From the NCBI GenBank assembly GCA_023136205.1, contig JAGLRQ010000107.1, positions 1-16,276 on the forward strand: DNA of 16,276 bases, given 5' to 3'. The translations under genes were made by a program, and so were the position numbers. The notes beneath the pieces were generated by a model, which saw only the letters and a program-made list of their open reading frames with translations, searched no databases and had not been told where the DNA came from. The stretch's first letter is position 1. Every line of letters starts with the position of its first letter. This document shows, piece after piece, positions 1,253 to 14,555 of this stretch. This stretch comes from Candidatus Auribacterota bacterium (lineage in GTDB: Bacteria; Auribacterota; UBA6266).

Positions 1253-3259
1253 TCAGTCTGCGTCCAATTTTTTCTTTTTTAATTTTACTCTTCTAATTGC
1301 CTCTCTTGCCTCTTTGAGTTCCGGATCAAATTCAAGCGCTTTATTGAGGTTAGCAATGGCTTCCTGACTTCTGTCCAGCATATCATAAAACAGTCCCAGT
1401 TGTAGATAATAAAATCCCTTGGTCGGATAGGCTTCAACGGCTATTTTAAGTTCTTTTTCAATCTCATACATCGGGATGGACTGCCCCGCGTCTGCATATT
1501 GATTTTTGATACCCTTTGCCACCAGAAAATGATAAAAAGCCATGCTTGGTTCAAGTTCTGAAGCTTTTTTGTAGCTTACCAGTGCTTTCTCGTAATTGCG
1601 CAGCTCTTCAGAAACAACACCTCTGAAATGCCACAACTGAGGGTTGTCTGGGTCTACATCAATAGCCCTGTTAATAAGTTTTAAACCGGCAGATAATTTC
1701 TTTTCCTGTACCACTGCAATTGCCTGTTTATATAACTCATCCGAGTCTACAATAGCTTTTGAATATCTATAGCACAGGGCAAAGCCTATAAGGATCGCGA
1801 GGATTATTACTCCGCTCACATACCATTTTCTCTCTACGGGGAACCTGACAGACGGAACTTTTGATTTCGCGAGGACTATAGCCGCGAAGAAAAACATTGT
1901 TGAGCTGATACCCGGGACGTAGAGAACAAATTCGAAAAAGCTGTGTACAAGGATTCCAAAGAACCCAATAAAAATTGCAAACAAAAGTATGTTTTCACCA
2001 TCACGCAGATCAGAGCACTTTATCTTCCTTGCCATAGATAAAAATATTGTTAATATACAGCCTATATAAAAACAAAACCCCAGAAGGCCTGTTTCCGCGA
2101 GAATCTGGAGATAATCGTTGTGAGCCATCTGGGTTTCCTCGCCGTGAGGCAGTTTGTAACGTGGGTAAATTGACCCGAAGGCTCCCGGGCCAACCCCGAT
2201 CAACGGGCTTTCTTCGAGCATTTTTATTCCGGGAGGCCAGTAATTGATTCTGGCAAGAGCGGAAGCAACTGGTGATCCTAATTTATCACCTTTAACTTTA
2301 TAGAGGCCAATTGAAAAAAACGTAATCAAAAGGATAATAATTATCGCGGAAACAAAAGAAAATAGTTTTATTTTCTTGTCTTTCAAAAACAACAGCGAGA
2401 ATGATATGAAAAACAGAATTACCGCTGCAAAAGCAACTAATCCCCCTTTTGAAAATGTCAGGTAGAAGGAAACCAGGCATAGCAGCGGTGAAAGGATAAT
2501 ACCTCCCAAGGCAGGAAAGAATAACAGTGTGTTTTTTACAAAAATTAAAAATCCAAGGGTAATGCAGGCAGAAACACAAATAAAATAACAGTACCGGGCA
2601 ATCTTGCGGTTTATGATTGATTTGAGGGTCAATGAAATAATAACAGGGATGGTCAATACAAAGAAACCCGCCAGCGCGTTGGGGTAGATAAAAAATGAAA
2701 AGGTTCTGTTACCCGAGAGCCTTGAAATTAATTTTTCGGGCATGTGTTTTATTTGCCCGGTTTCTACAAGCCAATCTCTTGTTTCCTGAAGCCCAAAGAA
2801 ATACTGATAGAGCCCATAGAGGGCTACGAGAACTGCCGCGGTCATAAGGACATAGAGGATGTTCTCGATTTTTCTTTCACCTCTGAAAAAATTTGAAATC
2901 GAAAGGTAAATTATTATCCATGTTACAAGGTTTACCATCAGCGATCTTGCTTTCCAAGGTACTATAGAAAAATGTTTTGATATAAGCGCGATGACTAGAA
3001 ATCCAAGAAGGAATATAGCGGGAAGGTCAACATAGAAATCTGTTTTTCTGGTTATTGATTCAAAAAATACCAGAATCAATATACAAAACCATCCTATAAA
3101 AAAGGCGTGATTATACCGCGGAAAGACTATGCCGCTTACAAACAACCTTAAAAATACCGCCGCGGCAATTGAAATACAAATTGAAAGAGCCAAAACTTTC
3201 TGAGGCCGAAAGGTAAAGAAAGGATTGATTCTTTTTTCGGTAATTTTATTGCTTACCAT
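1253..3259 (-). CDS. O-antigen ligase/polymerase family (Wzy_C-type) polytopic membrane protein with a C-terminal TPR repeat domain
   Basis: The 668-aa ORF has about 500 aa of strongly hydrophobic multi-helix sequence containing the Wzy_C/O-antigen-ligase signature region (GEETQMAHNDYLQILAETGLLGF). The last ~150 aa are soluble, helical and TPR-like (LINRAIDVDPDNPQLWHFRGVV..., YEKALVSYKKASELEPS, QEAIANLNKALEFDPELKEA). ATG start, overlapping the upstream gene stop by 14 nt. Confidence 0.8.
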   Translation of the reverse strand: MVSNKITEKRINPFFTFRPQKVLALSICISIAAAVFLRLFVSGIVFPRYNHAFFIGWFCILILVFFESITRKTDFYVDLPAIFLLGFLVIALISKHFSIVPWKARSLMVNLVTWIIIYLSISNFFRGERKIENILYVLMTAAVLVALYGLYQYFFGLQETRDWLVETGQIKHMPEKLISRLSGNRTFSFFIYPNALAGFFVLTIPVIISLTLKSIINRKIARYCYFICVSACITLGFLIFVKNTLLFFPALGGIILSPLLCLVSFYLTFSKGGLVAFAAVILFFISFSLLFLKDKKIKLFSFVSAIIIILLITFFSIGLYKVKGDKLGSPVASALARINYWPPGIKMLEESPLIGVGPGAFGSIYPRYKLPHGEETQMAHNDYLQILAETGLLGFCFYIGCILTIFLSMARKIKCSDLRDGENILLFAIFIGFFGILVHSFFEFVLYVPGISSTMFFFAAIVLAKSKVPSVRFPVERKWYVSGVIILAILIGFALCYRYSKAIVDSDELYKQAIAVVQEKKLSAGLKLINRAIDVDPDNPQLWHFRGVVSEELRNYEKALVSYKKASELEPSMAFYHFLVAKGIKNQYADAGQSIPMYEIEKELKIAVEAYPTKGFYYLQLGLFYDMLDRSQEAIANLNKALEFDPELKEAREAIRRVKLKKKKLDAD

Positions 3260-4343
3260 TTTTTGAACCGAAATATTCCAGGATTGATATTATAAAAAGA
3301 ATTAGAATAACCTGAGACATTATCAAAAGTGCCGAACAAGTATTGTCAACTTCCGGAAGAACTATGGCCGCTATACCCGTACAAAGGCAGATTATATAAA
3401 TAAACGTTATCGCTGTTTTGTACGAAAGCCCGAGGCGCATCAGCCTGTGAGAAAAGTGGTTCTTATCAGGTGCGAAAATTGAAACGCCTTTATAAATGCG
3501 TACAGCGATAACAGTTACCGTATCGTATAACGGAACCGCCAGGACAAGAATCGGCATTAGTATTGGAAACAAGGTATAGCTTTCCTGAGTGTAATATGTG
3601 CCCAGGATTGTAAAGACAGCCAGCATATATCCGAGAAACATGCTTCCCGCGTCACCCATGAATATTGAAGCAGGGTTAAAATTAAACATGAGAAACCCCA
3701 GAATACATCCCGCGAATATAAACAGCATTGATGAAATAAAGAGCTCCCCCATCCTTACTGAAATAAATATGAACGTTAAAGCTGAAACCAATGCAACCCC
3801 GGCGGATAAACCATCAGCATTGTCAAGAAGATTAAATGAGTTTATAACCAGTAAAAACCAGAAGTATGTAACGAGATATGAATAAAAAGTATTTCCTAGA
3901 AAAAGGCTGAGCCTTACCCCAAATATAATCGGCACGGAAGCAGCTACCAGCTGCAGGATTATTTTGGAAGAAGGTTTTATATTATATTTGTCATCATACA
4001 AACCTCCGATAACAATTATAAGGCCTCCCCCAAAGATAGCCGCAAGCAGTTTGAGTTTTTTTAACATTCCCGGCAGGTTCGGGATAAAATAAGTGTTTAA
4101 AGAAGGTATAAAGTTGAACTTCGAGTTTAACAGGACAAAGATTATACAACCCGCGGTAACAAGCAAAACTGACAGGTAAATTGCTGCGCCGCCCATAAGA
4201 GGGACTTTATCCGTGCTGAGTTTTTTAAAAGAATGAATATTGACAAACCCGGTTTTTATAGCAAGGGATCTAAACAATAAAGTAAGTATGATGCAGGTAA
4301 ATCCTGAAACCGCAAACAGCGCAAACAGTTCTTTTATCGGCAT
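3246..4343 (-). CDS. Polyprenyl-phosphate HexNAc-1-phosphate transferase, MraY/WecA family (initiating enzyme)
   Basis: The 365-aa polytopic ORF has the family motifs NSFNLLDNADGLSAG and FMGDAGSMFLGY. ATG start, overlapping the upstream GT stop by 10 nt (ATGCCGATAA). Confidence 0.88.
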   Translation of the reverse strand: MPIKELFALFAVSGFTCIILTLLFRSLAIKTGFVNIHSFKKLSTDKVPLMGGAAIYLSVLLVTAGCIIFVLLNSKFNFIPSLNTYFIPNLPGMLKKLKLLAAIFGGGLIIVIGGLYDDKYNIKPSSKIILQLVAASVPIIFGVRLSLFLGNTFYSYLVTYFWFLLVINSFNLLDNADGLSAGVALVSALTFIFISVRMGELFISSMLFIFAGCILGFLMFNFNPASIFMGDAGSMFLGYMLAVFTILGTYYTQESYTLFPILMPILVLAVPLYDTVTVIAVRIYKGVSIFAPDKNHFSHRLMRLGLSYKTAITFIYIICLCTGIAAIVLPEVDNTCSALLIMSQVILILFIISILEYFGSKNGKQ

Positions 4344-5497
4344 AATAACTCCATATACAGTTTCTCTATCTCGTCCACCATGTAATTCTTATCAAAATAA
4401 GGTATAATTAATTTTTTCCCCTGTTCTCCCATTCTTTCACATAATTTTTTATTTTCAACAAGTTTTTCAAGCGCCTTATATAAACCATTTGAATCTTTCG
4501 GCCGAACAAGGCAGCCGGTTATATCATTTTTCACAACTTCCCGCGCGCCATCCACATCAAACGACACGATAGGTTTTTTACACGCGAATGACTGCGGTAT
4601 AACTTTTGCCAGGCCTTCCCTTAACGAAACATGCACAATAATATCAGAGGCTCTTATGTACTCAGGTATTTTAGATGGATGTACAAGCCCCGCAAAAATT
4701 ATTTTATCCGAAATGCCTAAGTTCTTCGCCATGTTAACAAACCTATCTTTCAAAATTCCGTCTCCGACCAGCAGAAGGTAGATATTTTTGTGCCGTCTTG
4801 CCAGTTTTGCAAAAGCGTCAAATACATATTCGTGCCCTTTAAGCTCAAAGAGCCTTGCTATTTTGCATATTACGACAGCATCTATGGGTATTTTCAAAGC
4901 CTTACGTAACTGTTTTTCACCGCCTCCGGAGTTAAAATAACTATTAAGATCAAACCCGCTTCTGATAACCCTGTATAGTTCCCTTTTTGAGACTCTGGCT
5001 GCAATGGATTGTTCGGTCATTGCCTCCGAAACAGTAATAAAGTAATCAGTAAACCTGTCAACAAATCTCTCACAGGATTTATAGAAAATATTGGATAATT
5101 TGCTTTGATATTTATGATATGGAAGCCCGTGTATAGTATGAATGACAAGTCTTACCCCTGCAAGTTTTGCGGCAATTCTTGCGAGTATTCCCGCTTTTGA
5201 ACTGTGAGTATGAACTATATCGTATTTTTCACGCTTGAAAATATTCAGAAGCTTAAAGAAAGCGATTGTATCCAGAAAAGGGTTTACAGCCCTTTTCATT
5301 GAAGGTATAAGAATGATTTTTACCGAGGCTTTTTCAGCTTCAACAAACAGCGTTCCTTCAGGGCCCACAGCAGGCCCGGTAATAAGGGTAACATCGTATC
5401 CTTTTTTCATTAATCCTTCGACTGTGTAAAAGGTATTCTCCTGCGCCCCGCCTATGATAAGGCGCGTGATTATATGAGCTATTTTAGGTTTTTTCAA
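4334..5497 (-). CDS. Glycosyltransferase, GT-B fold / family 4-like
   Basis: The N-terminus KIAHIITRLIIGGAQENT is a typical GT4 Gly-rich start. The C-terminal half has HVSLREGLAKVIPQSFACKKPIVSFDVDGAREVV (E-x7-E-like region). The track start at 5512 is TTG with no SD. A second in-frame TTG at 5497 is preceded by GAGGAA with a 7-nt spacer and gives MKKPKIAHII, so 5497 is preferred. 5512 remains possible. Confidence 0.85.
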   Translation of the reverse strand: MKKPKIAHIITRLIIGGAQENTFYTVEGLMKKGYDVTLITGPAVGPEGTLFVEAEKASVKIILIPSMKRAVNPFLDTIAFFKLLNIFKREKYDIVHTHSSKAGILARIAAKLAGVRLVIHTIHGLPYHKYQSKLSNIFYKSCERFVDRFTDYFITVSEAMTEQSIAARVSKRELYRVIRSGFDLNSYFNSGGGEKQLRKALKIPIDAVVICKIARLFELKGHEYVFDAFAKLARRHKNIYLLLVGDGILKDRFVNMAKNLGISDKIIFAGLVHPSKIPEYIRASDIIVHVSLREGLAKVIPQSFACKKPIVSFDVDGAREVVKNDITGCLVRPKDSNGLYKALEKLVENKKLCERMGEQGKKLIIPYFDKNYMVDEIEKLYMELLCR

Positions 5498-6593
5498 GAT
5501 AGAGTTCCTCAAATTTTGGGATAATGTGCTCCCATGAGAACCTTTTTACCCTCTCCCCCGCGAGATCTCCCATAGCAGTTCTTTCAGCAGGATCCCTGCA
5601 CAACCTGATGATTTTATCTGCCAGTTCTATGGAGTTTGCGGGTTCAATCAGGAATCCGGTTTCACTATCATCTACAATATCACTCAAGCCATCAATCTTT
5701 GATGCTATAACCGGTTTCCCGCATGCCATCGCTTCAGCAGCAGAAATCCCAAATCCTTCCCACAGAGAAGGCATTACAAAAATATCCAGGCTGTGTAAAA
5801 AGGATTTAACATTCTTAACAAAACCCAGGAGGCGGAACTTCTTTTCAAGCCCTGCGTTTTTAATCCTCAACTGAAGTTTCTTTTTGAGCGGGCCCGACCC
5901 CCCTACCAGGAAAACCGCGTCAGGGCGATATTTTATCACCTCGCATGCGGCCTCAATTAGGTATTTATGGCCTTTTTGTTCGTGAAGGTGCCCCAATGCG
6001 CCAATTACAATATTGCTTTCAACACCCAGTAATTTTCTGTAATTTGCTGTGTTTATGCCGGAATCAGTAAAACTTTCAACTTTAACACAATTATGGATCA
6101 CATCGACTTTACCTTCCGCGAGCCCAATATTTTCCACAAGAAATTCTTTAACACCGTTTGAAGCCGCTACAATTTTAGTAGTGCTGCCGGAGAGTGTTTT
6201 CTCCAATAATCTGTAAGGCAGTCTTTGTTTAAAATCATATCTGTTTTGCTCTGAGGATATTATTTTTCCAGCATTAGCCAATTTCGCAGCAATCCTGCCA
6301 TAAATCTGGGAAAGGACAAGATGGGTATGCACAACATCGGGTTTTGAGGTTTCAATAATATTTTTTAATTTAGGAAGCACTGATATATCATAATTGCCCT
6401 TCATGGCAATTACATAACATTTGAGCCCCTTTCTCTCTGCAAAATCCTTTAGATAGGTGCTCTTATCTTTTCTTCTATCAAGGAATATTACTTCCTGTTT
6501 AAACTTATCTCTGTTAATTTTATCAATGAGGAGTTCCAGCAACTTTTCATTACCGCCAATATCAAAACTGTTTATAACATGAATAATCTTCAT
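5484..6593 (-). CDS. Glycosyltransferase, GT4 family
   Basis: The 369-aa ORF with an ATG start begins MKIIHVINSFDIGGNEK and contains MPSLWEGFGISAAEAMACGKPVIASKIDGLSDIV, the canonical GT4 donor-binding region. Its first ~55 codons are duplicated as a relic at 8187-8356. Confidence 0.9.
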   Translation of the reverse strand: MKIIHVINSFDIGGNEKLLELLIDKINRDKFKQEVIFLDRRKDKSTYLKDFAERKGLKCYVIAMKGNYDISVLPKLKNIIETSKPDVVHTHLVLSQIYGRIAAKLANAGKIISSEQNRYDFKQRLPYRLLEKTLSGSTTKIVAASNGVKEFLVENIGLAEGKVDVIHNCVKVESFTDSGINTANYRKLLGVESNIVIGALGHLHEQKGHKYLIEAACEVIKYRPDAVFLVGGSGPLKKKLQLRIKNAGLEKKFRLLGFVKNVKSFLHSLDIFVMPSLWEGFGISAAEAMACGKPVIASKIDGLSDIVDDSETGFLIEPANSIELADKIIRLCRDPAERTAMGDLAGERVKRFSWEHIIPKFEELYLEKT

Positions 6594-6596
6594 AAT
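6431..6596. repeat. Direct repeat, copy A (functional GT 5' end); partner is 8187-8356
   Basis: 6478-6596 aligns without gaps to 8238-8356 (offset exactly 1760 nt), with 100 of 119 positions identical by hand count. This includes a perfect 33-mer (6478-6510 = 8238-8270). After a 10-versus-12-nt unalignable patch, 6431-6467 aligns to 8189-8225 with 29 of 37 identical. Confidence 0.9.
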
Positions 6597-6602
6597 TTTT
6601 CT

Positions 6603-6782
6603 TTATTTTCTTGGCAACAATTCAATGCCTGTGATGTCTGCCTTCTTTTCCAGCTTGATCTGTTCTCCAAGAGCTCCAGCGCTACAACCTACATCAAAAA
6701 TCTTTTCCGCATTGGTAGGGAGTAAATTTCGAATATCGCTTCGCTTGCCAACACAAGATGGATTGAAATCATAAAGTTCCAT
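6603..6782 (-). pseudogene. Truncated class I SAM-dependent methyltransferase (N-terminal 59 codons only)
   Basis: MELYDFNPSCVGKRSDIRNLLPTNAEKIFDVGCSAGALGEQIKLEKKADITGIELLPRK* aligns residue for residue with the N-terminus of the intact 219-aa methyltransferase at 11641-12300 (MDIRDLNPSYIGQRPDIERLVSPNAKTILDIGCSTGTLGAAIKARTGARVFGIEL...). About 26 of 55 positions are identical. The fragment keeps SAM motif I (DVGCSAG) but stops just after it, 9 nt before the next gene's ATG. The track start at 6791 is GTG. The ATG at 6782 matches the homologue's start. Confidence 0.75.
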
Positions 6783-6787
6783 AATTC

Positions 6788-8185
6788 TCACTTCGTTTTA
6801 AAAAATTTCTTTTTCGAATATCGCAGTAATGCTTCTCTCTTATTTTCTACTTTACTAAATTTTGAAACTAATTTTTGTATTTTGTGAATATATAGCAGTG
6901 GCTTGATTCTAAACCTCCTTTTGTTTTTCAGGCTAATATCCCGAGATCTAGCGAACATTTTCTTATATTTCCTAATGCGTTCTATCAGCTTATCATCTAT
7001 CCAGGGAACTGTAGGAACATCCAGATAGAACTCACCCCAATCTTTAAGTGAGCCAGGTTCCTCAAAGCCCATCTTTAGCGATAAATCAAATAAAGGAGTG
7101 CCGGGATAGGGCGTATAGAGAAAGAGCAGTAATTCACTTGCGGGAATCTTTTCCCTAAAAGTATCTATCAGTTTGAAGGTTTCTTCAATATCTTCCTGTG
7201 TTTCGCCTGGGACCCCCACCATCATTGAAAAAGAAGGTATTATATTAAACCTATGGCAGAGATTGCCAAATTCCAATATCATCTCCGGCGTAATTCCTTT
7301 ATTTAATCTATCCAATGTTGCTTGAGCGCCGGATTCAGCCCCTACCAAGAGTCGTTTACAGCCTGACCTATCCAGCATTTCCCACTCTTCTGTCTCAAGA
7401 TTACAAAGTACATCTATCCTTGTATCTGAAGACCAATTTATTTTAATATTACTTCTAAGCAATTGGTTGGCAAATTCTAATGCCCTCTTCTTTCCTATAA
7501 AAAAGTTGTCATCGTCAAAATGCACACCATCAATAAAATATCTTCCCACACTATAATCAATAAGATCTACAACGCTTTCAATGCACCATCCGCTGTATTT
7601 CCTGCCATAAACCGAATTAATGGCACAAAACTTGCAGCCAAACGGACAACCCTGTTGTGTATATAAAGAGATTGTGCGCGGGCTCACATAAGGAATAATA
7701 TATCTTTCCATATTTCTAATCAGATCAAAGTTGTAAACAGGAAACTTGCTTTTGTCTATATATTCATAAGCAATTATATCGTCTGTCTTTTTCCCATTTT
7801 TAAGGCTTTCGACTATATCACAAAAAGCCTGTTCACCCTGTCCCACAATAACTTTATCTACATACTCATTCTCTAATGTCTGTTCAGGCTTTAAAGAAGG
7901 ATGCCACCCGCCCCATATAAGAGGAACACCGGGATTGATAGATCGAATCACTTGGGCTACTTCTAAAGAAGACTTTATATATGTGCCTGTAATAGTGCTA
8001 ATCCCCACACAGATTGCATTTTTGATTTCATCCCTATGCTTCCTCCATACCAAACCTGGCGTAGCTTCGTCTAAGATTAAAACCTCGTTATCCAAATTTG
8101 TGGCAAGAGACAGTAGTGCATGAGGCAAGCGTCCGTGTGAACCGCCGGCTCTTATCAAAATTACCTTTTTCCCCTTCTTAAACAT
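6788..8185 (-). CDS. B12-binding domain-containing radical SAM protein (class B radical SAM, candidate methylase)
   Basis: The CxxxCxxC cluster QQGCPFGCKFCAINSVYG has its Cys codons at 7646-7648, 7634-7636 and 7625-7627. The N-terminal flavodoxin-like cobalamin-binding-type domain reads KVILIRAGG...GISTITGTYIKSSLEVAQVIRSINPGVPLIWGGWHPS. The downstream radical SAM core includes LLVGAESGAQATLDRLNKG. The track start at 8200 is TTG. The ATG at 8185 is preceded by GGAGAGG plus a 4-nt spacer and gives MFKKGKKVILI, a 465-aa protein. Confidence 0.88.
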   Translation of the reverse strand: MFKKGKKVILIRAGGSHGRLPHALLSLATNLDNEVLILDEATPGLVWRKHRDEIKNAICVGISTITGTYIKSSLEVAQVIRSINPGVPLIWGGWHPSLKPEQTLENEYVDKVIVGQGEQAFCDIVESLKNGKKTDDIIAYEYIDKSKFPVYNFDLIRNMERYIIPYVSPRTISLYTQQGCPFGCKFCAINSVYGRKYSGWCIESVVDLIDYSVGRYFIDGVHFDDDNFFIGKKRALEFANQLLRSNIKINWSSDTRIDVLCNLETEEWEMLDRSGCKRLLVGAESGAQATLDRLNKGITPEMILEFGNLCHRFNIIPSFSMMVGVPGETQEDIEETFKLIDTFREKIPASELLLFLYTPYPGTPLFDLSLKMGFEEPGSLKDWGEFYLDVPTVPWIDDKLIERIRKYKKMFARSRDISLKNKRRFRIKPLLYIHKIQKLVSKFSKVENKREALLRYSKKKFFKTK

Positions 8186-8186
8186 T

Positions 8187-8356
8187 TTTCCTCTCCGCAA
8201 AATCTTTCAGGGAAGTGCGCTTATCCTATAACCCCGGTCAAGGAATATTACTTCCTGTTTAAACTTATCTTTGTTGATTTTATCGACAAGCAACTCCAGC
8301 AGTTTTTCATTGCCGCCTACATCAAAACTGTTTATAATGTGAACGATCTTTATTAT
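8187..8356 (-). pseudogene. Relic of a glycosyltransferase 5' end (homologue of 5484-6593), start codon lost and frameshifted
   Basis: Minus-strand translation gives IKIVHIINSFDVGGNEKLLELLVDKINKDKFKQEVIFLD, against MKIIHVINSFDIGGNEKLLELLIDKINRDKFKQEVIFLD in the intact gene. ATG has become ATA at 8353-8351, and the nearest upstream in-frame codon run begins after a TAG with no canonical start. A 2-nt length difference at 8226-8237 breaks the frame, and a TGA follows. Homology ends 1-2 nt before the radical SAM ATG. Confidence 0.85.
8190..8196 (-). promoter_or_regulatory. Shine-Dalgarno of the radical SAM gene (GGAGAGG)
   Basis: Minus strand reads GCGGAGAGGAAAAATG. This sequence sits inside the glycosyltransferase relic and is homologous to coding codons (GCAGAGAGAAAGGGG, A-E-R-K-G) of the intact copy. 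Confidence 0.6.
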
Positions 8357-8425
8357 GGTAAAACACCGAATGCATTTCTAACCTAGCTCCAGTTTTATAT
8401 GTACATAGACTTTTATGAACCAAAA

Positions 8426-9694
8426 TCACATAAAAACAAAATCTTTTTTAACAAACACAAGATAGTAAGAAGTAAAATACGAGCCTATCCAGTATACTCC
8501 ATTAGCAATTACAGCTCCTGCTATTCCGAAATAATATATTAGTGGTATCATAAGAAGTATAGCTATTGTGGGAAAAAGAACATTTAATAAATATAATCCC
8601 TTGATATAGTTCTGAGATTCAAACAATGTTTTAATAATCTGTGATGGAAATCCAAAGGACATAAGCAGTATCAATAGTTGAGAATAAACTATCGAACTTT
8701 CATATGTTTTTGAAAAAAACAACAGAATAAGGGGCCTTGCAACTAAAAAACCGATTACTCCAAGTGAAACAGATAGAATCGTTATCAACAAAAATTTATT
8801 TTTCACTTTTAAAAAAGCTTTCTCTCTTTCTAATTCCGAGAGCTTTGGGAAAATCAAACTCGTTTCTATCATAAGCAGGCTCTTTAACTGATTTTGAAAG
8901 GAATATGCTACCTGGTAAATAGCTAAAGCCTGAAAACCAAGAAAAGCGCCCACTATTATTTTATCAAGATTAACAAACAATATGCCTATTGCTCCTATAA
9001 AGGTAATGTGCTTAGAGAATTTAACGCCATCTCTTATATCATGTTTTTTTTCGGGAAGTTTTCTCAAAATAGAAGACGTAATAACTAAATTAAAAATAAC
9101 ATGGGCTAATAACGCTGCCAAAATTATAATTGGCAAAGAAGCCTTTCTAAAGATACTAATCAATATAAAGACAATTGATAATATTGATATAGCAGAAATT
9201 AAAGAAGCATAAATCCCAAATTTCTTGTTCCCAATATAGAATGCTGTCCAGAGATTATATCCGCAATACGGGACAAAAAATATTCCAGCGATCACAAATG
9301 AAGAAGACAGGATGGGTTGGCTCGCAATAAAATAATAATATAAAGCAACAATAAAACAACCAGCCATTCCCAAAAAAGAATATTTAACTTTTACAAAACT
9401 TAGCCGTCTAAAGGAACCGATATTCCCAATTGCAATTGAATTAACGGTAGCTATTTTTAAACCGGGAAGGCTTGCCATGGTTAAAATTGCCAATACCGAC
9501 ATAATAAATGCAAACTGGCCAAAAATGTTCTCTGTGGAAAAACGGGCGAAAGCAATATTTTGGGTCAGTTTTGCAAAAGAATTAACAAACAAAGGAAGCA
9601 ACATAAGCAGCGTGTTTTTAAAAAAATACCTTACATTGACCTTTGTTAATCTTTCAAGCAAATCTAATATTGAATTTATTGGATTTCTTAACAT
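8426..9694 (-). CDS. Polysaccharide/O-unit flippase, Wzx-like (MOP superfamily)
   Basis: The 422-aa ORF is very hydrophobic, with roughly 12 predicted helices by eye, short Lys/Arg-rich loops and a low-GC gene. Its size and its position in a GT/Wzy_C cluster are typical of Wzx. ATG start with GAAGGA 5 nt upstream. The call rests on architecture rather than a sharp motif. Confidence 0.7.
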   Translation of the reverse strand: MLRNPINSILDLLERLTKVNVRYFFKNTLLMLLPLFVNSFAKLTQNIAFARFSTENIFGQFAFIMSVLAILTMASLPGLKIATVNSIAIGNIGSFRRLSFVKVKYSFLGMAGCFIVALYYYFIASQPILSSSFVIAGIFFVPYCGYNLWTAFYIGNKKFGIYASLISAISILSIVFILISIFRKASLPIIILAALLAHVIFNLVITSSILRKLPEKKHDIRDGVKFSKHITFIGAIGILFVNLDKIIVGAFLGFQALAIYQVAYSFQNQLKSLLMIETSLIFPKLSELEREKAFLKVKNKFLLITILSVSLGVIGFLVARPLILLFFSKTYESSIVYSQLLILLMSFGFPSQIIKTLFESQNYIKGLYLLNVLFPTIAILLMIPLIYYFGIAGAVIANGVYWIGSYFTSYYLVFVKKDFVFM

Positions 9695-9742
9695 TTAATC
9701 CTTCTCTAAAACTAAAAATAAACCTTGTATTTTTTCCGTTTT

Positions 9743-10429
9743 TTATTTTTTTACAGCCTTCCATAATAAATCTCTTGCAAATAACCGATTTAGTGTATGA
9801 GGTGTTTTTTCTGATACTTTCAGGAATGGCAATATTCTTCCCGTTAAAGGTAATATTTGAACATCAACAAAAAAATTTGATAATAAATTTTCCAATTGTA
9901 AATAAGAAAACATTTTCATGTGAGTTGGATCTGGCTCAAATTCTTTCCCAAACAAAAATTTTATTCTATTAAAAACACGAAAGCTATTTGGTACAGAACC
10001 TAAAAACAAACCACCATGCTTAAGTACTTCAAAAATTTTTTTTATAAAAGGCTCTGCATAATAAATATGTTCAACTATTTCACAGGCTACAATCACATCA
10101 AGTGATTCTCTCTCAAAAGGAAACTCTGTATTTAAATCAAGCCAAAGAGTTTTTATTCCAAGTTTTTCCCTGGCTATATTCAATGCAGCACTATCAACAT
10201 CCGCTCCGATTACCTCATTCCCATTAACAAAATATTTTGTTAATTCCCCATCCCTACAGCCCAAATCTAAAACTTTTTTCCCCTTCCCAATCCAATCTTT
10301 TAAATAATTACCTCGTTTGCCTTGACAATACAGGTAACCATATCTTTTTCTGGCTAAATGATGCGATTTGTAGATTTTTTCAAGAATAGACTTTGAAGAA
10401 TCTTTATCGTTATTAACAGATATACCCAT
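9743..10429 (-). CDS. Class I SAM-dependent methyltransferase
   Basis: The 228-aa ORF has motif I VLDLGCRDGELT, post-I VIGADVD, and DVIVACEIVEHI...LKHGGLFLGSVPN, typical of the Methyltransf_11/23-like fold. ATG start. Confidence 0.85.
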   Translation of the reverse strand: MGISVNNDKDSSKSILEKIYKSHHLARKRYGYLYCQGKRGNYLKDWIGKGKKVLDLGCRDGELTKYFVNGNEVIGADVDSAALNIAREKLGIKTLWLDLNTEFPFERESLDVIVACEIVEHIYYAEPFIKKIFEVLKHGGLFLGSVPNSFRVFNRIKFLFGKEFEPDPTHMKMFSYLQLENLLSNFFVDVQILPLTGRILPFLKVSEKTPHTLNRLFARDLLWKAVKK

Positions 10430-10452
10430 TCTATGTTCTTTCCTATAAATAC

Positions 10453-11523
10453 CTAAATTATCTCCTCAAGGAGACCCTTAAGATGCCTTCCTAAGGCCTG
10501 AGGTGTAAACTTCTTTATGGCCAATCGATAACCATTCTCGGCTATCCTCTCCCTTAGCTCTTGATTATTCTTCAGCTCTAATATGGCTGAGGCCAAAGAC
10601 TCAGGATCAGCTCTCCGACACAATTTCAGATGTTCGTTGTCTACAAAGATTTCTCTAATAGCTGGAGTATCAGCGGTGATGACAGGTTTTTTCGCCGCTA
10701 AGGCTTGGTAGACCTTGTTAGGAATCACCTTCTCTGTCTTTTTTGTCCTGCCAAATATCCCTAAACAGAGGTCCGCTTTAGCCACCAGAGAGGGGAGAAC
10801 TGCTGGAGGGACGGAATCCTGAAATATGAGGTTGTCTACCTTTATCCTGCTGGCCAAATCCCGCATCTCTTGCCAGGTTTGTCCCTTGCCCACCAACTCG
10901 AACCTAATCTTGGATTCTTTTTCTAATATTTTGGCGGCCTCAATAATATATTGAATCCCATGCAAAGGGATGTAGGTTCCCCAGAAGAGGACTAAAAAAC
11001 GGGAGTTTGCTCTCTTGAGGGGTTGGGGGAAGAAGAGGTCATTATCTGCCCCGACAAAGACTTTCCTTAACTTGGTTATTTTAATCTTAAACTCACGACA
11101 GAAATAATCCAGATGCTGATTGGTATCAGCCAGAACAAGGTCAGCTAAATTCATTGAAAATTTATCAAACCAGAAGTAGTACCTTGCTCTAAGAGAATTC
11201 TCCTTGACTAATCTTCTATCAAAGACATTTGTGTCATAAAGAGAGGTAAAGGGGTCAAAGACCAATGGTTTCTTGGTAAGCTTAGCCAAAAGATAGGCCA
11301 AAGGGAGGATTGTTTGATTACATTCTGCCACGATGACGGCTTTACATCCTCTAAAAACCCTCAGATACTGCCTGAGTAATAGAGGATATCTCTGGTAACT
11401 CTTCAGTTGAGGAGAAAGGTTGCACTCGACCACCTCAACATCATTGGCTTGTAGGCCTTTCCTCAAAACGGCATTACGGGCATACTCTCTATTATATGCT
11501 CCAAAGTAACAGATTTTCATCAT
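10453..11523 (-). CDS. Glycosyltransferase, GT-B fold (GT4-like)
   Basis: The 356-aa ORF starts MMKICYFGAYN. Its C-terminal half has FRLVLFWGTYIPLHG..., GIFGRTKKTEKVIPNKVYQALAAKKPVITADTPAIREIF, a GT-B C-domain pattern. Sampled lines of this gene are noticeably more GC-rich than those of neighbouring genes. Confidence 0.75.
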   Translation of the reverse strand: MMKICYFGAYNREYARNAVLRKGLQANDVEVVECNLSPQLKSYQRYPLLLRQYLRVFRGCKAVIVAECNQTILPLAYLLAKLTKKPLVFDPFTSLYDTNVFDRRLVKENSLRARYYFWFDKFSMNLADLVLADTNQHLDYFCREFKIKITKLRKVFVGADNDLFFPQPLKRANSRFLVLFWGTYIPLHGIQYIIEAAKILEKESKIRFELVGKGQTWQEMRDLASRIKVDNLIFQDSVPPAVLPSLVAKADLCLGIFGRTKKTEKVIPNKVYQALAAKKPVITADTPAIREIFVDNEHLKLCRRADPESLASAILELKNNQELRERIAENGYRLAIKKFTPQALGRHLKGLLEEII

Positions 11524-11640
11524 CCCTTACATTCCCTAATGAAACTCGAATTTTCCAAATCGCAAAATTTACAGTCGATTCCCCAGGAAAAAACTATGCG
11601 CATAATCTCTCCCTCGCTATGCAGCGCAACGGAATAGCGG

Positions 11641-12300
11641 TTAGGTACAACGCTGTGCTCGTATCAAGTACTGAAAAGCAAGAAAGTTCCTCATGCCGGG
11701 AATCGCAAGAAACTTGGCAAAACGATTCAGTCTATGGCCTCTTTCTATAAACCTGTAATTTGTTTTGATTGTGTCGATTGATAAATCTGCGCTATCAAAT
11801 AATTCCATTATGTTTCTTTTAGTAAAGAATCTGAGGTGTGTTTGGTCGTGAATGCCCCTCTCCCTGTATGGCCAATTCCCTTTAAACACCAGATTAAAAA
11901 TCGTATCTAAATGTCTAACGTTAGGGATTGATGCGATTATTGTGCCGTCGTTTTCCAGATATCTCGCTGCTCCCCTCAAGACAGACCAAGGATCGATTAA
12001 GTGCTCTAATATATCAGCGAAAATTATTGTATCAAATCTAAAATCCTGCATTTTACCTTGAAGTATTATTTCTGCAGCATCACCCACGAAAACCTTGTCC
12101 AACCGATCAGAGGCAACATGCGCCATTTCTTGTGACAGTTCAATTCCAAAAACTCGTGCGCCCGTTCTTGCTTTGATTGCCGCGCCCAGGGTGCCAGTAC
12201 TACATCCTATATCAAGGATGGTTTTGGCATTGGGGGAAACCAACCTTTCTATGTCTGGTCGTTGTCCTATATAGGACGGATTAAGGTCTCTTATATCCAT
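11641..12300 (-). CDS. Class I SAM-dependent methyltransferase
   Basis: The 219-aa ORF has motif I ILDIGCSTGTLG, post-I VFGIELS, then FDTIIFADILEHL and NDGTIIASIPN. It is the intact homologue of the stump at 6603-6782. Confidence 0.88.
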   Translation of the reverse strand: MDIRDLNPSYIGQRPDIERLVSPNAKTILDIGCSTGTLGAAIKARTGARVFGIELSQEMAHVASDRLDKVFVGDAAEIILQGKMQDFRFDTIIFADILEHLIDPWSVLRGAARYLENDGTIIASIPNVRHLDTIFNLVFKGNWPYRERGIHDQTHLRFFTKRNIMELFDSADLSIDTIKTNYRFIERGHRLNRFAKFLAIPGMRNFLAFQYLIRAQRCT

Positions 12301-12312
12301 ATCATTCCTCTT

Positions 12313-13401
12313 TCACTTTTTAATGCAACTCTCGAGCGCAGTATATATATTGGAAACACAATTTTCCAGTTTATGCTGCTCAACAACAATATTTCTCAAA
12401 TGCAATCCTAAAGCATTTTTTTTGTCAGCCGGCATCGCAGAAAACTTCTCTATCCTTTGGACAAGTTTATGAGGACTGTTTTCATTGATGAAACAATCCT
12501 CAAGGTTACTCATAAGTAACTTTTTTAAAGCCCCGTTATTAGTAATTATCAGGAGCCCACTGCTCATTGCTTCCAACACAGCTTTATCATAACTACCGAC
12601 GTCAGTCAAGCTTACCAAGACATCACATGATTTATATAATGAACCAATTTTCTGATGCAATACAGGTCCAATAAACTTTACCATATCAGTAAGACCGCAA
12701 TTTTTTATCATTCTTTTTAATCTCTCACAATAATCACGATGTTTGTTTATTAAAACATCCCCAGCAATTATACATTTGAATTTAACTTTTCCACTGTCCT
12801 TAAGTTTTTTTAATGCTTCTATAAGAACCTCAAGTCTTTTAACCGGAGCTATTCTACCTGCTGAAAGTATTTTTATAATTTTATCCTGCTTGCCATAATT
12901 TTTTAGATCAAATGTGGCAGTGTCTATCCCGTGTCCGGCAACAACTATTTTCTTTGATTTTAACGGGAAACTCTGTCTTGATGCTGTAATTATCTTATTA
13001 CAAATCAAGTGTGCTATTCTCAATTTCAAAGTTGCTTTACAGTGAATATACCATATAACAATGGGAATCTTGAATAACACTTTAAAAGGGACCAAAACCA
13101 GTGCATATACAGGGCACATGTGAATAAATATGCAGTCTATTCCCTTTTCTTTTTTTATTTTAAAAACAGTTGAATATAATATCTTAAGGATGTTTGTTTT
13201 TCCTGGATTATTTTTTTTCTTAATTTCAATAATTTTTACATTTTCCGGCAAATCATAATTTCCTGCTCTCAGTGTACACACGAAAACCTCTTTAAAAAAA
13301 GATGAAAATTCCGCTAACCATTTCGTAAAAAATCCAAGGAGCCAGTCATTTTCGTCTACAACCTGAGTAACGATTAAAATATTTAATTTTTTGTCTTTCA
13401 T
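12313..13401 (-). CDS. Glycosyltransferase, GT-B fold (GT4-like)
   Basis: The 362-aa ORF has N-terminal LNILIVTQVVDENDWLLGF. The C-domain reads ILSAGRIAPVKRLEVLIEA...CDVLVSLTDVGSYDKAVLEAMSSGLLIITNN. The gene is very AT-rich. Confidence 0.75.
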   Translation of the reverse strand: MKDKKLNILIVTQVVDENDWLLGFFTKWLAEFSSFFKEVFVCTLRAGNYDLPENVKIIEIKKKNNPGKTNILKILYSTVFKIKKEKGIDCIFIHMCPVYALVLVPFKVLFKIPIVIWYIHCKATLKLRIAHLICNKIITASRQSFPLKSKKIVVAGHGIDTATFDLKNYGKQDKIIKILSAGRIAPVKRLEVLIEALKKLKDSGKVKFKCIIAGDVLINKHRDYCERLKRMIKNCGLTDMVKFIGPVLHQKIGSLYKSCDVLVSLTDVGSYDKAVLEAMSSGLLIITNNGALKKLLMSNLEDCFINENSPHKLVQRIEKFSAMPADKKNALGLHLRNIVVEQHKLENCVSNIYTALESCIKK

Positions 13402-13410
13402 CGAGCACTC

Positions 13411-14547
13411 TTATCCGATTTTTTGACCGAGTGTTTTTTCAATCATTTGAAAATAATTTTCTGCGAATTTTATTGTGCTGAAATTTTCTTCAACAAAGTT
13501 TTTTCCGTTTAAACCCATAATTTTCATTTTTCCCTTATTGTTGAAAGCAAATAATATTTTTTCTGCCAATGATTCTGGATCTGCAGGCTGAATTAGCAGC
13601 CCTGTTTCTCCATCAATAATTAATTCGGGAATTCCTCCGACACAACTTGCTATTGCGGGCCTTGAACAGGCAAATGCTTCAAGGATTACCCTCGGAAGGC
13701 CTTCAGTGATTGAAGGTAATATCAATGCAATTGAACTATGTATAAAATCTGCAATTTCTCCCTGAGTTTTGTTGCCCAAAAATATAAACTCATTATCTAA
13801 TTTAAGGGTTTTTACTCGATTAGCAAACATTCCTTTCTCTTCGCCACTGCCGATTATTAAAACCTCCAGTTTGGTATGTTTTTCTTTTGCAATGGAAACA
13901 GCGTCAATTAATGTATCAATTCCCTTCAAATGGATAATCTGTCCTACAAAGATAAAACGGTTTTGTATAATTTCTTTTTCCTTAGAATCAAAAAATATTT
14001 CGATGTCAGTATATGTCGGAAAAATAAATTTAGGTTTTTGAAATTCGCCAACAACTTTTTCAATTTCTTTTGAAATAATTCTAATTGCATCACTTTTGTT
14101 TAATGCCCATTTCCCCATCAAATCAGTTATCCATTTGAATCCACTGCCAATCCTTTTATAGACAACCGGCGCTTTATCCCATTCTCCATGAATTTCAATA
14201 ATTAATTTGATTCTTGGTTGCAGTATTTTAATAAAAGTGCCGGCAATTCCCTCAAACGGAGATTGACATACAATAATAGATATATCTTTTCTTCCAACCA
14301 GCAGAATTCCCTTTAAAAAGGCATAGATTAAAAAATACGCCTGCCTGAGATAATTTGGAACTCTTGAAGAAATCAGGTAAAAATCGGCATTTTCATTAAA
14401 ATGAAGCTTCCCTTTTCCATTATGAAGGCTGATAAATGTCATATCCAGCTTTTGCGAGAGGGCCTTTACTTTTTTCGCGTTAGTTTGATTCAGGGGTTTT
14501 GAGTAACGTGCCCCGCCGATAAACAATACTTTTGTTTTTTTATCCAT
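13411..14547 (-). CDS. Glycosyltransferase, GT4 family
   Basis: The 378-aa ORF contains FIFVGQIIHLKGIDTLIDA and LPSITEGLPRVILEAFACSRPAIASCVGGIPELIIDGETGLL, the canonical GT4 E-x7-E region. Confidence 0.9.
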   Translation of the reverse strand: MDKKTKVLFIGGARYSKPLNQTNAKKVKALSQKLDMTFISLHNGKGKLHFNENADFYLISSRVPNYLRQAYFLIYAFLKGILLVGRKDISIIVCQSPFEGIAGTFIKILQPRIKLIIEIHGEWDKAPVVYKRIGSGFKWITDLMGKWALNKSDAIRIISKEIEKVVGEFQKPKFIFPTYTDIEIFFDSKEKEIIQNRFIFVGQIIHLKGIDTLIDAVSIAKEKHTKLEVLIIGSGEEKGMFANRVKTLKLDNEFIFLGNKTQGEIADFIHSSIALILPSITEGLPRVILEAFACSRPAIASCVGGIPELIIDGETGLLIQPADPESLAEKILFAFNNKGKMKIMGLNGKNFVEENFSTIKFAENYFQMIEKTLGQKIG

Positions 14548-14555
14548 CTCTAAAA

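What the first reader, a model, noticed from the sequence alone, without database searches (positions are those of the whole stretch)
6788..8185. Intact class B (cobalamin) radical SAM enzyme embedded between flippase and glycosyltransferases: candidate unconventional glycan tailoring step
The ORF has the CxxxCxxC cluster and an N-terminal B12-binding-type domain. Its length (465 aa) is normal for the family, so it appears functional, with a good SD. Established knowledge: class B radical SAM enzymes methylate or otherwise modify unactivated carbon or phosphorus centres. Examples are GenK/GenD1 on aminoglycoside sugars, Fom3, and the hopanoid methylases HpnP/HpnR. To my knowledge no member has an assigned role in Wzx/Wzy-type surface polysaccharide assembly. 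Its position in an operon with six GTs, an initiating transferase, a flippase and two ordinary O/N-type methyltransferases makes a C-methylated (branched-chain) or otherwise radical-modified sugar in the repeat unit a reasonable hypothesis. That hypothesis is inference only. The enzyme would also make glycan structure dependent on cobalamin supply.
Basis: partly seen in the sequence, partly recalled or inferred. Interest (0 to 1): 0.68.

Follow-up and report, generated by a model that had tools for sequence, protein, structure and literature searches.

The report
B12-type radical SAM glycan-tailoring enzyme
An intact, uncharacterised cobalamin-type radical SAM enzyme sits in a surface-sugar gene cluster of an uncultured bacterium, and its close relatives nearly always travel with one particular methyltransferase inside such clusters, so it probably decorates a cell-surface sugar chain in an unproven way.

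Summary
Window 6788-8185 (minus strand) encodes an intact 465-aa protein with a Rossmann-type B12-binding domain and a radical SAM core (C180-x3-C184-x2-C187). It lies in a one-strand cluster with a WecA-like initiating transferase, six GT4-type glycosyltransferases, a Wzx-like flippase, two class I methyltransferases and a Wzy_C-TPR protein.

The protein reaches no curated family cut-off and is 14-20% identical to any solved structure. Its close subfamily (61-80% identity, about 29 proteins) forms one 50%-identity cluster inside a cloud of more than 2000 uncharacterised clusters.

Of 19 non-redundant close-subfamily contexts, 16 are glycan loci (Wzx/Wzy, Wzm/Wzt or GT-C type). In 15 a class I methyltransferase lies within two genes, and in one contig it is fused.

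The window's methyltransferase at 11641-12300 is the conserved partner. A 59-codon stump of a second copy follows the rSAM gene. A degenerate copy of the downstream glycosyltransferase's 5' end precedes it and supplies its Shine-Dalgarno sequence.

Best reading: a portable rSAM plus methyltransferase glycan-tailoring pair. C-methylation is plausible but unproven, and other radical chemistry is equally compatible. Cobalamin binding is inferred only. It is a new member of a known kind, of moderate interest.

The parts
6788..8185 (-). Intact B12-binding-domain radical SAM gene, 465 aa including the stop codon. An alternative TTG start at 8200 is unlikely, because homologues begin with MFKK/MIKK.
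   Evidence: The AF2 model has pLDDT 93.4.
7781..8173 (-). N-terminal Rossmann (B12-binding-type) domain, about residues 5-135. It carries the conserved motifs G61-x-S63-x-I65, G92-G93 and G117-E118.
   Evidence: Pfam PF02310 at 47.9 bits. The motifs are invariant or nearly invariant. The family profile aligns to OxsB across this domain and reaches its second half in TokK.
7061..7675 (-). Radical SAM core, about residues 171-375, including the GAESG motif (G282, E284) and K296.
   Evidence: Pfam PF04055 at 69.6 bits. Invariant columns are listed.
7625..7648 (-). The [4Fe-4S] cluster motif C180-PFG-C184-KF-C187.
   Evidence: Read directly from the sequence. The three cysteines are invariant in 54 sequences.
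6603..6782 (-). A 59-codon truncated copy of the partner methyltransferase (MT*). Homology ends near codon 55.
   Evidence: It is 53-55% identical to the first 55 residues of the methyltransferase that follows or is fused to the rSAM in L004, L005 and L006, and 49% identical to the window methyltransferase at 11641-12300. Pfam gives no hit. It was called as a 62-aa gene in three assemblies.
8188..8356 (-). A degenerate copy of the first ~165 nt of glycosyltransferase gene 5484-6593. The start codon is lost (ATG to ATA) and there is a 2-nt indel. Its 3' end supplies the rSAM gene's Shine-Dalgarno sequence.
   Evidence: Direct repeat D1: 119 nt at 84% identity, spacing 1760 nt.
11641..12300 (-). 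Intact partner class I methyltransferase MT* (219 aa; MetW/Methyltransf_23 type).
   Evidence: It is 50-56% identical over its full length to the methyltransferase adjacent or fused to the rSAM in L004, L005 and L006. The nearest solved structure is 3cc8, a putative methyltransferase of unknown function.
8426..9694 (-). Wzx-like flippase (Polysacc_synt / Polysacc_synt_3).
5484..6593 (-). GT4-family glycosyltransferase immediately downstream. It is the source of the duplicated 5' segment.
3246..4343 (-). WecA/MraY-family polyprenyl-phosphate sugar-1-phosphate transferase, the initiating enzyme.
   Evidence: PF00953 at 113 bits.
1253..3259 (-). Wzy_C-domain protein with a C-terminal TPR region. 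It could be a ligase, a polymerase or an O-oligosaccharyltransferase.
9743..15710 (-). The rest of the same-strand cluster: second methyltransferase 9743-10429; GT1 10453-11523; and GT4s at 12313-13401, 13411-14547 and 14556-15710. A further GT4 lies at 4334-5512.

Best explanation
The gene encodes a functional cobalamin-type (class B architecture) radical SAM enzyme of an uncharacterised subfamily. It forms a portable two-gene tailoring module with a specific class I SAM methyltransferase (MT*, window 11641-12300).

Proposed mechanism, all inferred: on the cytoplasmic face, before export by the flippase, the [4Fe-4S] cluster cleaves SAM to a 5'-deoxyadenosyl radical. That radical abstracts a hydrogen from an unactivated carbon of a sugar, or of a substituent on a sugar, in the lipid-linked or nucleotide-activated glycan precursor. 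The most likely outcome is methyl transfer from methylcobalamin, giving a C-methylated decoration. MT* would add an ordinary O- or N-methyl group to the same residue.

Shown here: an intact gene under purifying selection; the domain architecture and cofactor motifs; the conserved pairing with MT*; and conserved residence in glycan loci.

Inferred only: the substrate, the chemistry, cobalamin binding and the timing relative to flipping.

My sub-estimates: acts on the glycan pathway, about 0.75; is a methylase, about 0.5.
For: The ORF is intact with all family-invariant residues. dN/dS is 0.09-0.14 against ten homologues.

Pfam B12-binding and Radical_SAM hits are both above their cut-offs. The Cbl motifs GxSxL, GG and GE are conserved (motif definitions in PMC9204698). 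The AF2 model has pLDDT 93.4, and the top fold matches are class-B enzymes plus AprD4. The family profile aligns to cobalamin-binding OxsB across the N-terminal domain (profile 22-343). It aligns to TokK over profile 78-356, which includes the second half of that domain. It aligns to AprD4 only over the rSAM core.

Sixteen of 19 close-subfamily contexts are glycan loci, and a class I methyltransferase lies within two genes in 15 of 19. MT* is fused to the rSAM in P0002/L004. In the wider family, methyltransferase density falls from 11% of ORFs within 2 kb of an rSAM gene to 0% at 6-8 kb.

All genes lie on one strand, with no terminator-like site between the flippase, the rSAM gene and the glycosyltransferase.
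Against: No characterised relative is close: the best curated score is HpnJ at 135 bits against a cut-off of 577, and identity to solved structures is 14-20%. Several of the nearest relatives are not methylases (HpnJ, BchE, OxsB, AprD4), and AprD4 does not bind cobalamin (PMC12931638).

In the window the gene is flanked by two gene fragments, and the adjacent partner copy is truncated. One close homologue (L121) has no glycan genes nearby. Firmicute members of the wider family sit in non-glycan clusters.

There is no cobalamin riboswitch in the window. The genome's cobalamin supply could not be examined.
Confidence: 0.5

Rival explanations
1. The enzyme tailors the glycan by radical chemistry other than methyl transfer. 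Candidates are ring contraction or rearrangement (as proposed for HpnJ on a hopanoid-linked amino sugar, or as in OxsB), deoxygenation by dehydration (as in AprD4 on paromamine), epimerisation or oxidation. MT* alone would then supply the methyl group.
For: HpnJ is the top curated hit (135.5 bits). AprD4 is the top sequence and fold hit among solved structures. Both act on sugars. The glycan context is the same as for the best explanation. HpnJ, BchE and OxsB are non-methylases within the class (PMC9204698).
Against: All these scores are far below the family cut-offs, and the protein is about equally distant from methylases: TsrM, TokK, CysS, MgmA, PhpK and HpnR. The majority of characterised class-B enzymes are methylases (PMC9204698). 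No reductase partner of the AprD3 type is conserved next to the gene.
Confidence: 0.25
2. The substrate is not the glycan. It could be a lipid carrier, a membrane lipid, a peptide or a cofactor, and the placement in glycan loci would be a by-product of mobile accessory-gene neighbourhoods.
For: The wider family at 30-38% identity occurs in non-glycan clusters: PPDK-like, NHL-repeat, SDR, thiolase and ABC-2 genes in Paenibacillus L017. Only 43 of 76 wider-family loci hold a recognisable glycan gene. One close homologue, L121, has no glycan neighbour. The second-best curated hit is a lipid-biosynthesis rSAM, TIGR04072.
Against: Within the close subfamily, 16 of 19 contexts are glycan loci of three different export types. 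Only the rSAM and MT* are conserved at 50-80% identity, while the surrounding glycosyltransferases diverge. That is the pattern expected of a glycan-tailoring cassette.
Confidence: 0.12
3. The gene is a stranded remnant. It was carried into this locus by a recombination that truncated its adjacent partner, and it is no longer used.
For: It is bracketed by a degenerate glycosyltransferase 5' copy and a 59-codon methyltransferase stump. Its ribosome-binding site is recycled glycosyltransferase coding sequence.
Against: The reading frame is open and all invariant residues are kept. dN/dS is about 0.1, although this averages over long divergence and says little about recent time. An intact MT* orthologue is present in the same operon. 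There is no terminator upstream. The sequence is identical in three assemblies from different samples.
Confidence: 0.08

Closest known systems
HpnJ (hopanoid-associated B12-binding radical SAM protein, TIGR03471)
   Same: It has the same two-domain architecture. It is the best-scoring curated family (135.5 bits, aligned over residues 71-380). It is proposed to act on a lipid-linked sugar by contracting an oxane ring (PMC9204698).
   Different: The score is far below the 577.6-bit cut-off. No hopanoid genes lie nearby. HpnJ is not paired with a class I methyltransferase, and its reaction is not a methylation.
AprD4 (apramycin C3'-deoxygenation radical SAM diol dehydratase, PDB 6fd2)
   Same: It is the best sequence and fold match among solved structures (E 3.7e-15; TM 0.64-0.68). 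Its substrate is a sugar, paromamine.
   Different: Only the rSAM core aligns: query residues 153-375 and family-profile positions 170-395. AprD4 does not bind cobalamin (PMC12931638). The window protein keeps the GxSxL, GG and GE cobalamin motifs. It scores 75 bits against a cut-off of 500.
GenK / GenD1 (gentamicin sugar C-methyltransferases, class B rSAM)
   Different: They are secondary-metabolite enzymes acting on free pseudo-oligosaccharides. Similarity to them was not tested here, because no model or sequence was available in the libraries. The window holds no aminoglycoside genes.
CysS (cystobactamid iterative methylase, PDB 9n1d) with its upstream O-methyltransferase
   Same: It is a class B rSAM that methylates a methyl group installed earlier, building ethyl to tert-butyl ethers (PMC9204698, PMC12846815). 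This offers a rationale for an obligate methyltransferase plus rSAM pair. It is a fold match with TM 0.61.
   Different: Identity is 16%. CysS is 628-645 aa long with an extra domain. Its substrate is an aromatic methoxy group on a carrier-bound intermediate, not a sugar. The window protein has no Trp after the cysteine motif (it reads C-x3-C-x2-C-A-I), unlike the TokK/CysS group.
OxsB, TokK, TsrM and MgmA (QCMT): solved cobalamin-dependent rSAM enzymes
   Same: All share a Rossmann cobalamin domain followed by an rSAM barrel. TM scores are 0.58-0.64. Profile alignments cover part or all of the N-terminal domain: OxsB at profile positions 22-343 and TokK at 78-356.
   Different: Identity is 15-20%. 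Their substrates are a nucleoside, a carbapenam, tryptophan and a protein glutamine. None occurs in a glycan locus.

Membership tests
Radical SAM superfamily (PF04055) | A CxxxCxxC motif ligating a [4Fe-4S] cluster. | tested here: met
   C180, C184 and C187 are invariant in 54 homologues.
Radical SAM superfamily (PF04055) | A profile score above Pfam's gathering threshold and a partial TIM-barrel fold. | tested here: met
   The score is 69.6 bits against a cut-off of 29.5. The AF2 model (pLDDT 93.4) matches rSAM structures with Foldseek probability 1.00.
Cobalamin-dependent (class B) radical SAM enzymes | An N-terminal Rossmann B12-binding domain (PF02310). | tested here: met
   The score is 47.9 bits against a cut-off of 32.1, although only profile positions 51-120 align. 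The model shows alternating beta-alpha elements over residues 7-129. The family profile aligns to OxsB from profile position 22.
Cobalamin-dependent (class B) radical SAM enzymes | [quoted passage not shown] | tested here: met
   They are G61-I-S63-T-I65 (Ile in place of Leu), G92-G93 (invariant) and G117-E118 (invariant and nearly invariant).
Cobalamin-dependent (class B) radical SAM enzymes | Actual binding of cobalamin and its use in catalysis. | not testable with these tools
   AprD4 and ArsL show that a Rossmann-like N-terminal domain does not guarantee cobalamin binding (PMC12931638).
HpnJ (TIGR03471) | A score at or above the curated equivalog cut-off (577.6 bits). | tested here: not met
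   The score is 135.5 bits.
AprD4 family diol dehydratases (NF033070) | A score at or above the curated cut-off (500 bits). | tested here: not met
   The score is 75.1 bits, and only residues 141-374 align.
TIGR04295 (B12_rSAM_oligo), TIGR04072 (lipid rSAM), BchE, PhpK, HpnR and MgmA (TIGR04014) | A score at or above each family's curated cut-off. | tested here: not met
   The scores are 33.7 against 400; 124.9 against 360; 97.5 against 481; 94.5 against 600; 76.6 against 650; and 70 against 360.
GenK/GenD1-type sugar C-methyltransferases | Sequence relatedness to GenK or GenD1, plus methyl transfer to a sugar carbon. | not tested
   No GenK or GenD1 model or sequence was available in the libraries searched. 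The chemistry is not testable here.
Wzx/Wzy-dependent glycan assembly locus | An initiating polyprenyl-phosphate transferase, glycosyltransferases and a Wzx flippase. | tested here: met
   PF00953 at 113 bits; six Glycos_transf_1 ORFs; and Polysacc_synt plus Polysacc_synt_3 hits.
Wzx/Wzy-dependent glycan assembly locus | A dedicated Wzy polymerase and a chain-length regulator (Wzz/PCP). | tested here: inconclusive
   Only one Wzy_C-domain protein is present, fused to TPR repeats. It could be a ligase, an O-oligosaccharyltransferase or a polymerase. No Wzz gene is seen in the 21 kb of L001. Related loci L005, L006 and L119 do have Wzz-kinase plus Wzy.

The most novel reading that the evidence does not exclude
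The methyltransferase plus rSAM pair is an obligate two-step alkylation cassette for surface glycans. MT* would install an O- or N-methyl group on a sugar of the lipid-linked unit. The cobalamin rSAM would then methylate that methyl group or a neighbouring unactivated carbon, once or iteratively as CysS does, giving ethyl or branched-alkyl or C-methyl decorations not yet described in bacterial surface glycans. The cassette would move between Wzx/Wzy, Wzm/Wzt and GT-C pathways and would make surface-glycan structure depend on cobalamin.
Probability: 0.12. Interest if true: 0.8.

Novelty: new member of a known kind. Interest (0 to 1): 0.45.

Why it matters
If the enzyme does modify the glycan, it would be the first radical SAM, cobalamin-dependent tailoring step assigned to a lipid-linked surface glycan. 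It would also be the first function for part of a very large unexplored region of the class-B rSAM family: more than 2000 clusters at 50% identity with E <= 1e-30. It would add unactivated-carbon chemistry to the known repertoire of glycan decorations and would tie cell-surface structure to cobalamin availability in uncultured PVC-group bacteria. The conserved rSAM plus MT* pair, with its natural fusion, gives a defined two-protein target for reconstitution.

Tried and rejected
1. Ten full-text literature searches, seven of them pairing radical SAM, cobalamin or B12 terms with O-antigen, Wzx, polysaccharide, exopolysaccharide or glycosyltransferase, found no paper linking the two. A 2026 review of B12-rSAM enzymes does not contain the words sugar, glycan or polysaccharide.

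2. I recalled that the Kuenenia S-layer O-glycan paper tied radical SAM genes to glycan methylation. The text has no such statement, so I dropped this.

3. The genome-contig scan returned only relatives at 38% identity or less and none of the close subfamily. The close contexts came from contig look-ups and the metagenome scan instead.

4. Apparent rSAM 'fusions' of 650-980 aa in high-GC loci have no extra Pfam domains. I attribute them to my ORF caller extending ORFs to the longest upstream start. Only P0002 (rSAM-MT) and P0123 (partial MT plus GT fragments, then rSAM) carry extra domains.

5. A SNP comparison of three assemblies gave no variation in or around the rSAM gene, so it gives no information on recent selection.

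6. Rfam found nothing in the window, including no cobalamin riboswitch. No terminator-like site lies in 6300-9000.

7. Curated-family and fold scores cannot separate methylase from non-methylase.

8. The genome's cobalamin uptake and synthesis genes could not be checked, because only about 21 kb around the gene is readable.
Full report
**1. The observation**

All ORFs of 140 aa or more in the window lie on the minus strand. The ORF 6788..8185 is open and 465 aa long from its ATG. GGAGAGG lies 4 nt upstream of that ATG. Homologues start MFKK or MIKK, so the ATG is preferred to the in-frame TTG at 8200.

- Pfam gives Radical_SAM at 69.6 bits (cut-off 29.5, residues 176-340).
- Pfam gives B12-binding at 47.9 bits (cut-off 32.1, residues 56-124).
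- The motif C180-PFG-C184-KF-C187 lies at window 7625-7648.

- a WecA/MraY-type initiating transferase at 3246-4343;
- six Glycos_transf_1/GT4 ORFs at 4334, 5484, 10453, 12313, 13411 and 14556;
- a Wzx-like flippase at 8426-9694;
- two class I methyltransferases at 9743-10429 and 11641-12300;
- a Wzy_C-TPR protein at 1253-3259;
- an RmlD fragment at the window's end.

The longer contig adds RmlA-like and RmlB-like genes and a complete RmlD upstream.

**2. Source**

The window is identical to part of a 538-kb ENA scaffold. It is 99.8-99.9% identical to two further assemblies, one of them MAG GCA_030639325.1. The flanking AccC protein is 98% identical to a protein labelled 'Candidatus Aureabacteria', now phylum Candidatus Auribacterota in the PVC group. 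The next relatives, at about 70% identity, are Omnitrophota.

**3. The protein**

No NCBIfam family reaches its cut-off.

| Family | Score (bits) | Cut-off (bits) |
|---|---|---|
| HpnJ | 135.5 | 577.6 |
| lipid-biosynthesis rSAM TIGR04072 | 124.9 | 360 |
| Sden_1168 P-methylase | 104.6 | 575 |
| BchE | 97.5 | 481 |
| PhpK | 94.5 | 600 |
| HpnR | 76.6 | 650 |
| AprD4 | 75.1 | 500 |
| MgmA | 70 | 360 |
| TIGR04295 | 33.7 | 400 |

An AF2 model built on 54 homologues is confident, with pLDDT 93.4 and pTM 0.89. Foldseek against the PDB gives roughly equidistant matches:

- AprD4, TM 0.64-0.68;
- TsrM, TM 0.61;
- TokK, TM 0.64;
- OxsB, TM 0.60;
- CysS, TM 0.61;
- MgmA, TM 0.58;
- MiaB and RimO follow.

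Identity to all of these is 14-20%.

The family profile aligns to AprD4 only over the rSAM core (profile positions 170-395). It aligns to cobalamin-binding OxsB over positions 22-343, which includes the N-terminal domain, and to TokK over positions 78-356. AprD4 lacks cobalamin (PMC12931638).

[quoted passage not shown] It calls the DxHxxG 'His loop' a red herring. The window protein has G61-I-S63-T-I65, G92-G93 and G117-E118. In the 54-sequence alignment G92, G93 and G117 are invariant, and G61 and E118 are nearly invariant.

So the class-B architecture and motif tests are met. Cobalamin binding itself cannot be tested here.

**4. Family size**

A search of 1.84 billion representatives at 50% identity gave one representative for the close subfamily (P0024, 63% identity). 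After that came a continuum at 41% identity or less. There were 2131 clusters at E <= 1e-30 and 23,355 at E <= 1e-10. The word-indexed search found about 29 close proteins at 62-80% identity, then a drop to 38% or less. All named ones are uncharacterised proteins from MAGs.

**5. Conserved context of the close subfamily**

I examined 19 non-redundant contexts.

| Context type | Loci |
|---|---|
| Wzx (with or without Wzy and Wzz-kinase), then rSAM, a ~220-aa methyltransferase and GT1 | L004, L005, L006, L119, L089/L090; L091 has rSAM-MT-GT1 but no Wzx on its short contig |
| Variants with the methyltransferase before the rSAM, or Wzx after it | L094, L097, L122 |
| GT1, methyltransferase, LPG_synthase_TM, rSAM, then a PMT_2 (GT-C) gene | L007/L096, L008 |
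| Wzm/Wzt ABC-transporter type, with a Wzt_C domain and PAPS synthesis genes | L098 |
| Glycosyltransferase or epimerase genes only | L093, L095, L120 |
| Contig too short to judge | L092, L099 |
| No glycan gene | L121 |

Counting the window, 16 of 19 contexts are glycan loci. A class I methyltransferase lies within two genes in 15 of 19.

In L004 the rSAM and the methyltransferase form one 697-aa ORF (P0002; a single contig). Only the rSAM and this methyltransferase are conserved at 50-80% identity. The surrounding glycosyltransferases and flippases match at about 20-30%. That is how a portable tailoring cassette behaves.

**6.

- The methyltransferase at 11641-12300 is 50-56% identical over its full length to the partner methyltransferase (MT*) of L004, L005 and L006. 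The conserved pair is therefore complete in this operon, but split by about 3.4 kb.
- Directly after the rSAM stop codon, a 59-codon ORF (6603-6782) is 53-55% identical to the first 55 residues of MT* and then stops. It is a truncated second copy.
- Directly before the rSAM ATG, about 8188-8356 is a degenerate copy of the first ~165 nt of the downstream glycosyltransferase 5484-6593. The evidence is direct repeat D1 (119 nt, 84% identity, spacing 1760 nt) and the alignment. Its start codon is ATA, and a 2-nt indel breaks the frame.
- Homology runs up to the rSAM ATG. The 'good SD' GGAGAGG is therefore recycled glycosyltransferase coding sequence, from the codons for A-E-R-K.

So the block [rSAM plus methyltransferase codons 1-55] sits between two copies of the glycosyltransferase 5' end. 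This is a recombination scar.

The scar is present in three assemblies, so it is not an artefact. Those assemblies carry no SNP in this block. No terminator-like site lies between the flippase, the rSAM gene and the glycosyltransferase.

**7. Is the gene still functional?**

The reading frame is open and every family-invariant residue is present. dN/dS against ten homologues is 0.09-0.14; dS is large or saturated, so this averages over long divergence. An intact MT* is present in the operon. I rate decay as unlikely, at about 0.08.

**8. The wider family**

I surveyed 80 loci from species-representative genomes at 29-38% identity. They span Planctomycetota, Omnitrophota, Acidobacteriota, Bacteroidota, Desulfobacterota, Bacillota, CPR bacteria and DPANN archaea. 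I classified neighbouring ORFs with HMMs built here.

- 43 of 76 loci have a GT, Wzx, Wzy or PMT_2 gene within 8 kb.
- 12% of neighbouring ORFs are glycan-class.
- 49 of 76 loci have two to five rSAM paralogues.
- Class I methyltransferase density falls from 11% of ORFs within 2 kb of an rSAM to 5%, 3% and 0% in successive 2-kb bins.

The family is heterogeneous. The Bacillota loci, such as Paenibacillus haidiansis L017, hold PPDK-like, HAD, TetR, NHL-repeat, SDR, thiolase and ABC-2 genes and no glycan genes. Glycan linkage is therefore a property of the close subfamily and of many, but not all, wider relatives.

**9. Mechanism**

Shown: the architecture, the cofactor motifs, the conserved pairing with MT* and the residence in glycan loci.

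Inferred: the enzyme acts on a cytoplasmic glycan precursor. It uses a 5'-deoxyadenosyl radical to abstract a hydrogen from an unactivated carbon. It most probably transfers a methyl group from methylcobalamin, while MT* adds an ordinary methyl group. Most characterised class-B enzymes are single methylases (PMC9204698).

The tight and sometimes fused methyltransferase partner also fits a CysS-like scheme, in which the rSAM methylates a methyl group installed beforehand. CysS builds ethyl to tert-butyl ethers this way (PMC9204698, PMC12846815).

Non-methylating chemistry of the HpnJ, OxsB or AprD4 kind is not excluded. Nothing computed here separates the two.

**10. Known or new?**

The literature searches and the 2026 review found no B12-rSAM with an assigned role in surface-glycan assembly. 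The library does not cover subscription-only papers.

The protein is a new, uncharacterised member of a known superfamily. The glycan-tailoring role is a well-supported hypothesis from context, not a demonstrated function. I set interest at 0.45. A specialist would not be surprised to see a B12-rSAM in a glycan locus of a MAG. However, the conserved rSAM plus MT* pair gives a concrete, testable entry point into a large unexplored part of the family.

Noticed in passing
window 8188-8356 and 6478-6596: A direct repeat (119 nt, 84% identity, spacing 1760 nt). The upstream copy is a pseudogenised 5' end of glycosyltransferase gene 5484-6593: its start codon reads ATA and it carries a 2-nt indel. 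The rSAM gene's Shine-Dalgarno sequence derives from it.
   Followed up: yes
window 6603-6782: A 59-codon stump of the partner methyltransferase lies immediately after the rSAM gene. An intact orthologue lies 3.4 kb upstream at 11641-12300.
   Followed up: yes
window 1253-3259: The only Wzy_C-domain protein is fused to C-terminal TPR repeats (668 aa). No separate polymerase or Wzz gene is seen in 21 kb. The product may therefore be a short oligosaccharide ligated to lipid or protein rather than a polymer.
   Followed up: partly
window 2602-3239, 4475-5192 and 15878-16064 (compared with L002 and L003): All SNPs between the three assemblies fall in a few tight clusters, for example 14 within 190 nt of rmlD and 11 in GT 4334-5512. 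Long identical stretches lie between the clusters. This looks like short recombination tracts between strains.
   Followed up: no
window 8500-10500 and 12500-14000: G+C drops to 0.31-0.32 over the flippase, the second methyltransferase and two glycosyltransferases, against 0.38-0.43 elsewhere. This mosaic composition is typical of exchanged glycan genes.
   Followed up: no
L006 12447-13886, L119 11457-12896, and L008 15868 to the end of the locus: Related glycan loci carry a second, different B12-binding rSAM gene a few genes downstream. They also carry extra methyltransferases and an APH/choline-kinase-like gene.
   Followed up: no
L098 262-5807: One close homologue lies in an ABC-transporter (Wzm/Wzt) O-polysaccharide locus. 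Its Wzt has the Wzt_C carbohydrate-binding domain, which in known systems recognises a terminal cap on the chain (from my own knowledge, not checked here). PAPS-synthesis genes are also present. This hints that the tailoring could be a chain-end modification.
   Followed up: no
L120 7607-8569: A Peripla_BP_2 gene lies next to the GT1 of a close-subfamily locus. Peripla_BP_2 is, from my own knowledge, the family of the B12-binding protein BtuF and of siderophore-binding proteins. This is a possible but weak hint of linked cobalamin supply.
   Followed up: no
L017 (Paenibacillus haidiansis), L013, L016, L020, L030, L042, L088: Bacillota members of the wider family occur as three or four paralogous B12-rSAM genes. 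In L017, the only one of these loci scanned against Pfam, they are interleaved with PPDK-like, NHL-repeat, SDR, thiolase, TetR and ABC-2 genes. The others show the same ORF-size pattern with no glycan-class hits. This is an uncharacterised non-glycan cluster in cultured organisms.
   Followed up: partly
L007/L096, L025, L034, L047: A recurrent module of GT1, a class I methyltransferase, a ~312-323-aa ORF (LPG_synthase_TM by Pfam in L007) and a B12-rSAM. L007 also has an adjacent PMT_2 (GT-C) gene. It occurs in L007/L096 and in three Desulfobacterota-type MAG loci. It suggests modification of a polyprenyl-phosphate sugar before flipping.
   Followed up: no
window 15668-15710: The listed TTG start of GT 14556-15710 overlaps the rmlD end by 43 nt. 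The public gene call uses a later start that gives 371 aa, so the 384-aa ORF is probably over-extended.
   Followed up: no
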